Shown: piece after piece, positions 9,220 to 15,389 of the stretch
How positions within the stretch are numbered: position 1 is the first letter of the stretch
Layout: every line of letters starts with the position of its first letter
Translations under genes and position numbers: made by a program
Notes under the pieces: generated by a model
Told to the model about the DNA's origin: nothing
The model's database searches: none
The model's input: only the letters and a program-made list of their open reading frames with translations
NCBI RefSeq assembly: GCF_009914755.1
Contig: NC_060947.1
DNA: 64,000 nt
Source of the DNA: the human T2T-CHM13v2.0 reference genome, Homo sapiens
Direction: 5' to 3' (one strand)

Positions 9220-9997
9220 TTTTTTGTTGTTGTTGTCTAGTCATAGGGCTTGAGGAACTGTGAGTAAGATGTGAATCAAAAAATATTTCTCTTTTCCTTT
9301 CTAAGCCTTTTTCTCCTCAGACTTCTTCTGAGGGTAGAGAAAACTACAAACTACCTCAACCCAACAGCTTCAGGTGTGCATGGGATGGATGGACAAATGG
9401 TGGCTCCCCTGCTTTCCTCCAGGCCAGGGCTGGGGCGCATGGCCCATGGCCCACTGGACAGCAATTACGTTTCTCTCTCTTTTGGAGGAACCAATTTGTA
9501 TAAGAATAAGAGGTATCTTTCCAATCCCGCACTTTAAACTTCTCTTTTTCTCTATGCTGTCAGCAGTTAACGTTTAAGCGAGTTATTTTTTTTTTCATTT
9601 TATAAGACATTTTAGTCAGCCAGGAATTATAAGGATCACTGTTTATATTCTCCCTAAAGTTGTCATTATGAAAAGGGATTTGTGAGATTGGTCTTGAGCT
9701 GTAATCAACCTGGTGTAGTTTGCATTATTTTCTGTGTCGTCAGTAGCAAACTTTGTTGCAGGCCTCCATCTTGTTTTATCTCATTAGGAGCATGACTTGT
9801 AACCAAGTGGCCATGTTTTGTCTTAGCTTCTGTCATTTTACAATGGCAACTGGGTTTGTTCCTGGCTTAGGGAATGAGTCCTTTATGGTTTGATATCTGC
9901 ATGACCTTTTACTGATTCTCTTCTCCTCTGTGAACAACTTCCAGACTTTTTCTTAAATCTTCCTTTCTCTGGGTTACTTTTAAAGGTCCTAAATTTT

Positions 9998-12757
9998 ATC
10001 TAGAAGAAATGGATAAATTCCTCTACACATACACCCTCCCAGGAAGTTGAATTTCTGAATAGACCAATAACAGGCTCTGAAAGTGAGGCAATAATTAATA
10101 GCTTACCAACCAAAAAGAGTCCAGGACCAGATGGACTCACAGCCGAATTCTACCAGAGGTACAAGGAGGAGCTGGTACCATTCCTTCTGAAACTATTCCA
10201 ATCAATAGAAAAAGAGGGAATCCTCCCTAACTCATTTTATGAGGCCAGCATCATCCTGATACCAAAGCCTGGGAGAGACACAACCAAAAAAGAGAATTTT
10301 AGACCAATATCCCTGATGAACATCGATGCAAAAATCCTCAGTAAAATACTGGCAAACGGAATCCAGCAGCACATCAAAAAGCTTATCCACCATGATCAAG
10401 TGGGCTTCATCCCTGGGATGCAAGGCTGGTTCAACATACGCAAATCAATAAACGTAATCCAGCATATAAACAGAACCAACGACAAAAACCACATGATTAT
10501 CTCAATAGATGCAGAAAAGGCCTTTGACAAAATTCAACAACCTTCTTGCTAAAAACTCTCAATAAATTAGGTATTGATGGGACATATCTCAAAATAAGAG
10601 CTATCTATGACAAACGCACAGCCAATATACTGAATGGGCAAAAACCGGAAGCATTCCCTCTGAAAACTGGCACAAGACAGGGATGCCCTCTCTCACCACT
10701 CCTATTCAACATAGTGTTGGAAGTTCTGGCCAGGGCAATCAGGCAGGAGAAGGAAATAAAGGGCATTCAATTAGGAAAAGAGGAAGTCAAATTGTCCCTG
10801 TTTACAGATGACATGATTGTATATCTAGAAAACCCCATCATCTCAGCCCAAAATCTCCTTCAGCTGATAGGAAACTTCAGCAAAGTCTCAGGATACAAAA
10901 TCAATGTGCAAAAATCACAAGCATTCTTATAGACCAATAACAGACAAACAGAGAGCCAAATCATGAGTGAACTCCCATTCACAATTGCTTCAAAGAGAAT
11001 AAAATACCTAGGAATCCAACTTACAAGGGATGTGAAGGACCTCTTCAAGGAGAACCACAAACCACTGCTCAATGAAATAAAAGAGGATACAAACAAATGG
11101 AAGAAAATTCCATACTCATGGGTAGGAAGAATCAATATCGTGAAAATGGTCATACTGCCCAAGGTAATTTATAGATTCAATGCCATCCCCATCAAGCTAC
11201 CAATGACTTTCTTCACAGAATTGGAAAAAAATTATTTTAAACTTCGTATGGAACCAAAAAGAGCCCACATTGCCAAGTCAATCCTAAGCCAAAAGAACAA
11301 AGCTGGAGGCATCACGCTATCTGACTTCAAACTATACTACAAGGCTACAGTAACCAAAACAGCATGGTACTGGTACCAAAACAGAGATATAGACCAATGG
11401 AACAGAACAGAGCCCCAGAAATAATGCTGCATATCTACAACCATCTGATCTTTGACAAACCTGACAAAAACAAGAAATGGGGAAACGATTCCCTATTTAA
11501 TAAATGGTGCTGGGAAAACTGGCTAGCCATATGTAGAAAGCTGAAACTGGATCCCTTCCTTACACCTTATACAAAAATCAATTCAAGGTGGATTAAAGAC
11601 TTAAATGTTAGACCTAAAACCATAAAAACCCCAGAAGAAAACCTTGGCAATACCATTCAGGACATAGGCATGGGCAAGGACTTCATGTCTAAAACATCAA
11701 AAGCAATGGCAACAAAAGCCAAAATTGACAAATGGGATCTAATTAAAGTAAAGAACTTCTGCACAGCAAAAGAAACTACCATCAGAGTAAACAGGCAACC
11801 TACAGAATGGGAGAAAATTTTTGCGATCTACTCATCTGACAAAGGGCTAATATCCAGAATCTACCATGAACTCCAACAAATTTACAAGAGAAAAACAAAC
11901 AACCCCATCAAAAAGTGGGCGAAGCATACGAACAGACATTTCTCAAAAGAAGACATTTATGCAGCCAAAAGGCATATGAAAAAAATGCTCATCATCTCTG
12001 GCCATCAGAGAAATGCAAATCAAAACCACAATGGGATACCATCTCACACCAGTCAGAATGGCAATCATTAAAAAGTCAGGAAACAACAGGTGCTGGAGAG
12101 GATGTGGAGAAATAGGAACACTTTTACACTGTTGGTGGGACTGTAAACTAGTTCAACCATTGTGGAAGTCAGTGTGGTGATTCCTCAGGGATCTAGAGCT
12201 AGAAATACCATTTGACCCAGCAATCCCATTACTGGGTATATACCCAAAGGATTATAAATCATGCTGCTAGAAAGACACATGCACACGTATGTTTATTGCG
12301 GCATTATTCACAATAGCAAAGACTTGAAACCAACCCAAATGTCCAACAATGATAGAGTGGATTAAGAAAATGTGGCACATATACACAATGGAATACTATG
12401 CAGCCATAAAAATGATGAGTTCATGTCCTTTGTAGGGACATGGATGAAGCTGGAGACCATCATTCTCAGCAAACTATCGCAAGGACAAAAAACCAAACAC
12501 TGTATGTTCTCACTCATAGGTGGGAATTGAACAATGAGAACACATGGACACAGGAAGGGGAACATCACACACTGGGGCCTGTTGTGGGGTTGGGGGAGGG
12601 GTGAGGCATAGCATTTGGAGATATACGTAATGTTAAATGACGAGTTACTGGGTGCAGCACATCAACATGGCACATGTATACATATGTAAGTAACCTGCAC
12701 GTTGCGCATATATACCCTAAAACTTAAAGTACAATAAAAAAAATAACAAAAAATAAA
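9998..12757 (+). mobile_element. 5'-truncated L1PA4/L1PA5-like element inserted in the provirus
   Basis: Little-diverged ORF2 ([13 protein letters not shown]) with frameshifts; L1PA 3'UTR; A-rich tail 12733-12757. Confidence 0.95.
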
Positions 12758-13808
12758 CCATGTAATAAGTAGACCAGATAGGTTGCATAAAGGTAAATAA
12801 AATAATTTTTCACACTAATGTAGATTCATTGCATCACATATTATTAATGTAAACTTTATCCTTCAAACCACCTAGCAACAATATCTCATCATTAAGTATA
12901 ATAAATGCTGAGGGCATTTCCCACCTCTCTGTAAAACCACAGCACATTTTTTTCTCCCTTATTCATATTATGCAGGCCTAATTTGCACAGCATCCAGAAG
13001 TCTTTCATTAATTCACTTAAATAGGTTACTTTTTCCTAACGAGCTTACTTACACAAAAGTACCTAGGAGGTTTCCTCTCCTGGTGGGAAGACGTGTGATT
13101 CTGACACATAGGGTGAGAAAAAAAGAAAAAAAGTAATTCACTTGGGGCTGATGGCCTGAGAAGATGATAAATACATGGGTGGAAATCGTATTGTTTCTAT
13201 CGGCGTCTACTTGAATTTCTACAAAAGTTTGGCCTTTGTTTACGCCACCTGAGTTTGAGCAGGACAGAGACAGGCTGTGGACACATCTGTCCCTAAGTAT
13301 AGCCTCTCTTTGGCTCACTTTCCTCTTCCCATACTGCACCCTGTCCCTAGTAATCTCTGCTGAAGCATTTGTATCGTTTAGCATGCACTCTAATATCATA
13401 AGAATATAAGAAAGAGAGCTGTTATGGATTTAATTGTGTCCCCTTCAAATGCATATGTTGAAGTGCTAAACTCTGGTACCTCAAAATGTGACCTTATTCG
13501 GAAATACGGTGGTTGCACATGTAATTAGTCAAGACTAGGTCATACTGGTGTAGGGTGGGCCCCTAATTAAATATAACTGGTGTCCTTATAAAAAGAGAAT
13601 CTTAGATGCAGAAACACACACAGGGAGAATGCCACGTGAAGATTACAGTTATGCTCCCGCAGCCAAGGACTACAGAGGCCAGGAGAGAACCTTGGAACGG
13701 ATCCTTCTTTAGTGCCTTCAGAGAGGGCATGGCCATGCAGGCACCTTGATCTTGGATTTCTGGCCTTAAGAACTGTGAGACAATAAATTTCTGCTATTTA
13801 AAAAAAAA
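12758..13808 (+). other. L1 3'-transduced segment (unique DNA + MLT1 LTR + second poly(A))
   Basis: Enclosed together with the L1 by TSD aaaggtcctaaatttt (9982-9997) / aaaagtcctaaattgt (13805-13820); AATAAA at 13782-13787 followed by an A-run. Confidence 0.85.
13420..13800 (+). mobile_element. MLT1B/C MaLR LTR truncated at its polyadenylation site
   Basis: Starts tgttatggatttaattgtgtccc; ends aataaatttctgctattta; U5 end missing. Confidence 0.9.
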
Positions 13809-15389
13809 GTCCTAAATTGTGTAAGAACTACTTACCCCCTTTGAAAATACCTCATACACTCACAGTTAAATTATAACATTAATTGAGGCTTGTTGGTTTC
13901 ACCTGTGAGGATACTTTTAGTAAAGTTTGAAAGCCAGAAATATTGCCTGTTTGGCGTGGCTAAAGTTGAGTAATAAGGGAGTTAAAAGAATTTTCTTAGA
14001 GAGTGCTCAGCTTAATCAAAAGTGGATATCCAAGTTATATGTATATTTTAAAGGCCTTTTTGTTTTTTTCTCTTCTGGGACCCTACTTTACTGGAAAAGG
14101 GCTTTTTCTCAGTCGACTGAATTATTTTTCTCCGTTTTGCCTTGCCACTCTTAATTCATGCCTGAGAGGCCCTAAAATAACTGCTGGGGGCATGGGACTC
14201 CTTGGGAAAAACAGAAGAGGTGCCATTAACACTGTTTTGGGAAGAAACCTGTTTTTCTCATGGAACCCCAGGAATTAAAAGCAGATAGATCCTTCTCAAA
14301 ATCTGTTTTTGCCTCCCAGTCATGCCTGTTTATTAGGCCTTAAAAGATGCTTGCTTTCCTAGACCTGTTTCTTAAAGGGCTACACTCAGAAGGTAATAAT
14401 CCAATTAGGAGATTGGCAAACAAAAAATCTATGGCTGCTGGACTTTCTTCTGCCTGTGTAGCTATATATATGTTGTGTGTATAATGTCTATTTTAAAAAA
14501 ACTCAAATTTATTGGTCTAAAGGAAGATAACTGCTTGAATCAAATATTTTTAAAAGGGAAGATAAAAGCTGTGGTACTGCTCAGTTCAAGCGACTTTAAT
14601 CTTTGAGAAATAAAAACACTCTTAAAGACTATTGGTAAAATGCAGATGTCATCAAAATGTAAATAAGTGGACTAAATTATGCAGGTTAGATAATAAGTTG
14701 GCTAAATATTTAAAGGTTATAAACTACTTTTTTGGTTTTTGAGAACTGTTCAACTTGGTAAGACCTGGGGACATATGGAATTAACCACCCCATAATTATG
14801 CTGGAAGGAGTCAAACCTTGGCTCCACCTAGCACATAAGTGAAACAACTTACCGGGTTTTACATTAAAGTTAAAAATTGCTAAAGGATACCATTGTGACA
14901 CATAATTGAGACTATTGGATATAGATTTATATGTGAGGTGTGTAAGAACAGTAAAGTATCTTTTTAATAAGATATTATAAGAAGGTATAGAAATGTAAAT
15001 TCTTGCCTAGGGTTAAAGGATTGTTTTGAATGAAATAAAATAAATCTAAAAGTTCAAACATAAGATGGAAGGAATGTCAACATTAATCTTGCAAACATTC
15101 CATGTGTGAACATATTGACTAAATTCAAAAGGGTATTATACGGTTTTTCTGTAAATTGAGCATTGAAATAAAAGCACAACAAGGTATTCTTAAGGCACTA
15201 ATCTGCTCTTTGGCAAAATTTGTAAAGTATTATAAAAGGTTTTTCCTTTTTTAAATTTCTGAGTCGTCATTTTGGCAAAATAATTTATTTTAATCTGGAA
15301 TTCTATTTCATAATATATTGTGTTTTAAATCTCTAACATATTTAATAGGCTTTCCCAAATCAAACTTCAGTTTCAAAATTGCATTTCCT

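What the first reader, a model, noticed from the sequence alone, without database searches (positions are those of the whole stretch)
9982..13820. L1 3' transduction of ~1 kb, polyadenylated at a captured MLT1 LTR signal, inside a provirus
Seen: one 16-bp TSD (aaaggtcctaaatttt / aaaagtcctaaattgt, 14/16 identical, preceded by TTTT) brackets the L1PA (9998-12757), ~660 bp of non-ERV DNA and an MLT1 LTR. The LTR stops 13 nt after its AATAAA (13782-87) and is followed by an A-run. No TSD copy follows the L1's own tail. An ancient eutherian MLT1 sitting inside a much younger primate ERV is an age paradox. Inference: the source L1 read through its weak poly(A) signal and used the MLT1 signal, so this DNA was copied from another locus and tags the progenitor L1.
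Basis: partly seen in the sequence, partly recalled or inferred. Interest (0 to 1): 0.7.

Follow-up and report, generated by a model that had tools for sequence, protein, structure and literature searches.

The report
Parentless ancient L1 3' transduction
About 1 kb of chromosome 1 DNA sits behind a jumping-gene (L1) copy on the X chromosome, likely carried there some 20 million years ago by a parent L1 that is missing from the chromosome 1 site today; this is a clear example of a known process, not a new one.

Summary
One 16-bp duplication (9982-9997 / 13805-13820, 14/16) brackets a 5'-truncated L1, 670 bp of single-copy DNA and an MLT1 LTR cut just after its AATAAA. The 1.05-kb passenger (12750-13801) has one paralog in CHM13, chr1:107,598,884-107,599,932 (94.3%), where the MLT1 is complete, so chr1 is the donor. 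Of 29 copies of the host ERV examined, 6 span the site and each holds one copy of the duplicated motif; none of the 29 holds the passenger. The L1 differs from its nearest copies as much as the passenger differs from its donor (about 5%); the host LTRs differ by 17%. The age paradox therefore dissolves. The parent L1 is absent from about 36 kb around the donor, and no sibling transduction was found. Best reading: 3' transduction from a likely never-fixed L1PA4/5-age source that drift later removed, ended at the MLT1 poly(A) signal. A template-switch chimera is not excluded. L1 3' transductions, parentless donors and MaLR-derived poly(A) sites are all in print. New member of a known kind; modest interest.

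The parts
8790..9219 (+).
   Evidence: 81% identical to the 3' LTR over 430 columns
9982..9997 (+). 5' copy of the 16-bp target-site duplication, preceded by TTTT (TT/AAAG endonuclease-type site)
   Evidence: single copy in 6 of 6 spanning ERV paralogs
9998..12737 (+). 5'-truncated L1 (ORF2 part and 3' UTR, frames broken), likely L1PA4/5 age
   Evidence: 93-95% to the full-length matches among 40 scored genome candidates; 4.9-5.7% from 12 nearest; broken frames
12738..12749 (+). short degenerate internal A-tail, inferred to be the parent L1's genomic tail
   Evidence: sequence; not matched in the chr1 donor
12750..13419 (+). single-copy DNA copied from chr1:107,598,884 onward; starts with an A-rich octamer; carries three AATAAA hexamers that were not used (12752, 12796, 12900)
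13420..13801 (+). MLT1 LTR copied from chr1, cut 12-14 nt after its AATAAA (13782-87); last 50 or so nt missing
   Evidence: donor MLT1 runs on to a CA end with a 4/5 5-bp flanking repeat
13800..13808 (+). A-run, remnant of the insertion's poly(A) tail (3 As clearly untemplated)
13805..13820 (+). 3' copy of the target-site duplication (14/16)
18547..18968 (+). 3' LTR of the host ERV; limits approximate

Best explanation
This is one L1 insertion on chrX that carries 1.05 kb copied from chr1, likely because a parent L1 then sitting at the chr1 site read through its own poly(A) signal and stopped at the signal of a downstream MLT1 LTR, and that parent was likely never fixed and later lost. Shown: one TSD around the whole unit, a single donor with a complete MLT1, empty ERV paralogs, equal divergence of L1 and passenger, and no young L1 at the donor. 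Inferred: a full-length L1PA4/5-age parent sat at chr1:107,598,884 on some ancestral chromosomes about 20 Myr ago; its RNA passed three AATAAA hexamers and was cut 12-14 nt after the MLT1 AATAAA, ahead of the LTR's GU-rich tract; target-primed reverse transcription put it into a TT/AAAG site of an older ERV and stopped inside ORF2; the daughter fixed, while the empty chr1 allele won.
For: One paralog only, 993/1053 identical. Donor MLT1 complete, chrX copy cut at the poly(A) position. 6 of 29 ERV paralogs span the site with one motif copy and 0 of 29 hold the passenger; both window copies share a C at motif position 7 where those 6 have T. Divergence matches: passenger 55/1048 (non-CpG 40/1014), L1 against 12 nearest 4.9-5.7% (non-CpG 4.1-5.1%), Fisher p about 0.9-1; LTR-LTR 73/422. 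The donor junction starts with 7 As in 8 nt, which holds for 132 of about 30,000 positions there (0.4%), as expected of an L1 target site. The MLT1 signal has the most GT/TG steps downstream (9 against 0-5 for the four other hexamers, a crude measure). Donors without an L1 are common in print (PMC4862182, PMC7980453, PMC13141329; passages).
Against: No parent L1 lies within 19 kb upstream or 16 kb downstream of the donor, so read-through is not shown. No sibling carries the tag. The donor junction reads GC/AAAA, a weaker endonuclease site than TT/AAAA. Only 3 As of the final tail are clearly untemplated. An A-rich junction is also what a microhomology template switch predicts, and a side case (chr6 Alu + MLT1 piece) shows a similar layout whose donor junction is not A-rich. 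No ape or monkey ortholog could be examined.
Confidence: 0.72

Rival explanations
1. Reverse-order chimera: a non-L1 RNA from chr1 that ended at the MLT1 signal was reverse-transcribed first, and the enzyme switched at the A-rich octamer onto the poly(A) tail of an L1 RNA (or the two RNAs were ligated). No L1 ever sat at chr1.
For: No L1 at the donor; same orientation, single TSD and A-rich junction are all predicted; template switching and RNA ligation are described for L1 chimeras (PMC13174262, passages); the chr6 Alu-MLT1 side case has a donor without an Alu at the junction.
Against: The chimeras in the passages seen mostly place the cellular RNA 5' of the L1, with Alu next to L1 3' ends also reported. 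The donor lies about 12 kb from a Vav-family exon on the opposite strand and I have no evidence of a plus-strand host RNA. Parentless donors are frequent and have a simpler explanation.
Confidence: 0.13
2. True 3' transduction, but the parent L1 was fixed at chr1 and was later removed precisely by recombination between its own target-site repeats in the human lineage.
For: It gives the same empty site in CHM13.
Against: Precise removal of a 6-kb element is rare compared with loss of a polymorphic allele (recalled, no call).
Confidence: 0.07
3. Two insertions in sequence: the chr1 piece arrived first (orphan transduction or RNA moved in trans) and made the 16-bp TSD; an L1 then inserted at its 5' junction, which would read TTTT/AAAA, without a TSD.
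For: The 5' TSD ends in TTTT and the passenger starts with AAAA, which would be a good endonuclease site.
Against: No copy of the passenger's start is at the L1 5' junction (best 7/14); L1 and passenger have the same age within error; it needs the first truncation to fall on a 0.4% A-rich position and a second insertion without TSD.
Confidence: 0.05

Closest known systems
L1 partnered 3' transduction (described in PMC13009371, PMC9311842, PMC3024322; passages seen)
   Same: L1, internal A-tail, unique flank with a source elsewhere, a poly(A) signal 10-30 nt before a second tail, one outer TSD; about 1 kb lies within reported lengths (50-1600 bp in PMC3024322).
   Different: Ancient (about 5% diverged) rather than L1HS and polymorphic or somatic; parent absent.
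'Parentless' 3' transductions (dogs: PMC7980453, 17 of 18; PMC13141329, 24 of 27 not next to an L1; non-human primates: PMC4862182)
   Same: The source of the passenger has no adjacent L1, explained there by a segregating parent.
   Different: Those daughters are still polymorphic and the parents may still segregate; here the event is about 20 Myr old, so the parent is probably extinct.
MaLR/MLT1 LTR poly(A) sites adopted by host transcripts (PMC2553571; passages: 292 MaLR-associated human poly(A) sites, plus-strand bias, MLT1C analysed)
   Same: Sense-strand LTR signal ends a Pol II transcript.
   Different: Here the transcript was an L1 read-through RNA and is known only from its retrocopy.
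L1 chimeric insertions by template switch or RNA ligation (PMC13174262; passages)
   Same: Two RNA-derived parts, same orientation, one TSD.
   Different: Mostly the cellular RNA is 5' of the L1; here unique DNA is 3' of the L1 tail.

Membership tests
L1 3' transduction | One TSD brackets L1 plus passenger; none directly after the L1 tail | tested here: met
L1 3' transduction | Passenger has a source locus elsewhere that lacks the final A-tail and continues in its own flank | tested here: met
   chr1:107,598,884-107,599,932, complete MLT1
L1 3' transduction | Poly(A) signal 10-30 nt before a second A-tail | tested here: met
   AATAAA 12-14 nt before the cut; tail is short
L1 3' transduction | Endonuclease-type target site and empty pre-insertion state | tested here: met
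   TT/AAAG; 6 of 6 spanning ERV paralogs empty; true orthologs not available
L1 3' transduction | L1 and passenger are of one age | tested here: met
L1 3' transduction | Source L1 directly upstream of the donor (in some allele or ancestor) | tested here: inconclusive
   absent in CHM13; other alleles and species not available; the junction is A-rich
L1 chimera by template switch or ligation | Passenger RNA exists independently of an L1 and no L1 was ever at the donor | not testable with these tools
   no transcript data or primate orthologs
L1PA4/L1PA5 subfamily | Diagnostic 3' UTR positions against subfamily consensus | not testable with these tools
   no repeat library; about 5% distance to nearest copies and recalled 3' UTR motifs point there
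MER61-int host provirus | Match to the MER61 library entries | not testable with these tools

The most novel reading that the evidence does not exclude
No parent L1 ever existed at chr1: the insertion is a reverse-order chimera in which an MLT1-terminated cellular RNA was joined behind an L1 tail, and the chr6 Alu + MLT1-end insertion is a second case. Some 'parentless transductions' used to count hidden source elements would then be chimeras.
Probability: 0.12. Interest if true: 0.55.

Novelty: new member of a known kind. Interest (0 to 1): 0.3.

Why it matters
It is a well-resolved fossil of a known process. If the best reading holds, it marks the position of an active L1 that has vanished from the human reference and shows an old LTR poly(A) signal working about 20 Myr ago. 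Collected genome-wide, such old parentless transductions could estimate how many active L1s were lost before fixing. This single case does not change what is known.

Tried and rejected
Passenger as part of the ERV: rejected, 0 of 29 paralog loci hold it; 21 of the 29 lack 100-350 nt around the site and 2 gave no right-flank match, so only 6 inform on the junction. Segmental duplication or repair capture: rejected, similarity stops at the L1 tail and at the poly(A) position, and flanks are not shared. chrX as donor: rejected, only chr1 has the complete MLT1. Spliced RNA from a distant upstream L1: rejected, the donor junction has no AG acceptor and the L1 tail is retained. Siblings: none in DNA searches (2 candidates; only MLT1-family hits of 79% or less among 40 scored); a 24-nt motif search gave two exact hits and three hits at 3 mismatches against one control hit; none of 12 nearest L1 copies continues into the tag. 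Rfam gave nothing at the donor. Szak 2003, Pickeral 2000 and Khan 2006 were not held; I did not read them or their supplements, which might list this locus. No supplements of any paper were opened. The ten paper searches were for the process, not for these coordinates, so absence of this locus from print is not established.

Full report
Observation. The window shows an LTR element (LTRs near 8790-9219 and 18547-18968, 81% identical) interrupted at 9982-13820. A 16-mer at 9982-9997 recurs at 13805-13820 with 14/16 identity. These are the only matches at that level on either strand of the window, and the best match just after the L1 tail is 10/16. Two mismatches in 16 are unremarkable at 5% divergence (p = 0.20). 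Between the copies lie a 5'-truncated L1 with broken frames, a short A-rich tail, 670 bp of other DNA, and an MLT1-type LTR from 13420 that stops 12 nt after AATAAA at an A-run. The A-run is weak evidence alone: 9 As, 2 matching the donor and 4 inside the TSD copy.

Donor. A search of the window's own assembly with 12758-13430 returned two places, itself and chr1:107,598,896-107,599,560. The full match covers window 12750-13801 and chr1:107,598,884-107,599,932 at 993/1053. A search with the 3' part gave the same locus and otherwise only MLT1-family copies at 79% or less among the 40 of 3528 candidates scored. On chr1 the MLT1 runs about 50 nt further, through a GU-rich tract to a CA end with a 4/5 5-bp flanking repeat; 28 other MLT1 copies support these limits. 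chr1 is therefore the original and chrX the copy. The donor lies about 12 kb from a minus-strand Vav-family SH3 exon (the name VAV3 is recalled).

Empty target. Of 29 paralogous ERV loci fetched (out of 40 listed), 6 span the site; in each, the left and right flanks of the window join through one copy of the motif. 21 lack 100-350 nt around the site and 2 gave no right-flank match. None of the 29 holds the passenger. Both window copies carry a C at motif position 7 where those 6 carry T, as expected if one site was duplicated. The site reads TT/AAAG, a variant (recalled) of the endonuclease motif TT/AAAA given in PMC13174262 (passages).

Age. Passenger against donor: 55/1048 substitutions, K2P 0.055, non-CpG 40/1014. 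L1 3' kilobase against 12 of its best-scoring copies (40 of 13,010 candidates scored): 4.9-5.7%, non-CpG 4.1-5.1%; no difference. The window L1 has slightly more private changes (21/1040) than those copies (11-20). The host LTRs differ at 73/422. The ERV is thus much older than the insertion, and the MLT1 arrived as a passenger, which removes the age paradox. At a recalled neutral rate of 1.2-1.5 per 10^9 per site and year the event dates to about 18-23 Myr, near L1PA5 (20.4 Myr in PMC5237266, passages) and L1PA4.

The missing parent. No young L1 lies in 107,579,501-107,616,000 on chr1; only two old fragments under 100 nt at 70-80% were found. The chr1 junction is GC/AAAATAAA, A-rich at a level met by 0.4% of local positions. 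No sibling was found. The passenger passes three AATAAA and one ATTAAA before the MLT1 signal, which has the most GT/TG steps downstream.

Mechanism. Most likely (0.72) a full-length L1 segregated at the chr1 site about 20 Myr ago, read through to the MLT1 signal, and the RNA was inserted into the ERV; the daughter fixed and the parent allele was lost. The copy, its direction, its single TSD and its age are shown; the parent and read-through are inferred. Rivals: a template-switch or ligation chimera (0.13), a fixed parent later excised precisely (0.07), and two sequential insertions (0.05). Only primate orthologs can separate them.

Comparison with what is known. About 25% of L1 insertions carry 3' transductions, usually ended 10-30 nt after a poly(A) signal (PMC13009371, passages). 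Donors without an L1 are the rule in dogs (17 of 18 in PMC7980453; 3 of 27 next to an L1 in PMC13141329; passages) and were seen in non-human primates (PMC4862182, passages). MaLR LTRs supply 292 human poly(A) sites (PMC2553571, passages and table). PMC9311842, PMC3024322, PMC13174262 and PMC5753468 were seen as passages only. Five defining features of a 3' transduction were tested and met; the parent feature is inconclusive. Searches addressed the process; search 60 on fixed, lost-source primate cases returned no paper. They do not show that this locus is unreported, and the classic surveys were not held.

Side result. A motif search for this MLT1 end followed by an A-run gave 4 places, 0 in the reversed control. 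Besides this one: an old L1 end followed by 60 nt of MLT1 (chr2), an Alu followed by about 120 nt of MLT1 (chr6) and an MLT1 3' part (chrX). The chr6 piece maps at 97% to an MLT1 on chr13 that continues past the cut point and has no Alu at the junction. MLT1 signals seem to end retrocopied RNAs repeatedly, and the chr6 case keeps the chimera rival alive.

Verdict. Real and correctly read; a new member of a known kind, with a missing parent as its one notable feature. Interest 0.3.

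Noticed in passing
L067:1087-1552 (chr6:27.334 Mb); donor L071 (chr13:77,587,936-77,588,052, minus): Full-length Alu, A-tail, 5 extra bases, about 120 nt of MLT1 cut after its AATAAA, second A-tail, with TSD-like ends. The MLT1 piece matches a chr13 MLT1 at 97% that has no Alu and no A-rich site at the junction: an apparent Alu 3' transduction or an Alu-RNA chimera.
   Followed up: partly
L066:1316-1530 (chr2:20.010 Mb): Old L1 3' end, A-rich tail, 60 nt of MLT1 end and an A-run; possibly a much older transduction ended at an MLT1 signal. 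No clear TSD found.
   Followed up: partly
L068:1246-1545 (chrX:27.928 Mb): MLT1 3' part cut after AATAAA and followed by an A-rich run; donor not sought.
   Followed up: no
L085:1-830 (chr1:107.608 Mb, minus): 28S rRNA-derived fragment (Rfam RF02543, 210 bits) about 8 kb from the donor.
   Followed up: no
window 18420-18510: Hexamer tandem run (TCCTTA repeats) just before the 3' LTR of the host ERV.
   Followed up: no
window 1-2965: A second L1PA-type element, 7.8% from the transducing L1 over its 3' kilobase, with an Alu inside (1328-1641); not related to the transduction.
   Followed up: partly
L038-L064 (21 of 29 ERV paralog loci): Most paralogs lack 100-350 nt around the insertion site, mostly about 125-135 nt, suggesting two structural variants of this ERV family.
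   Followed up: no
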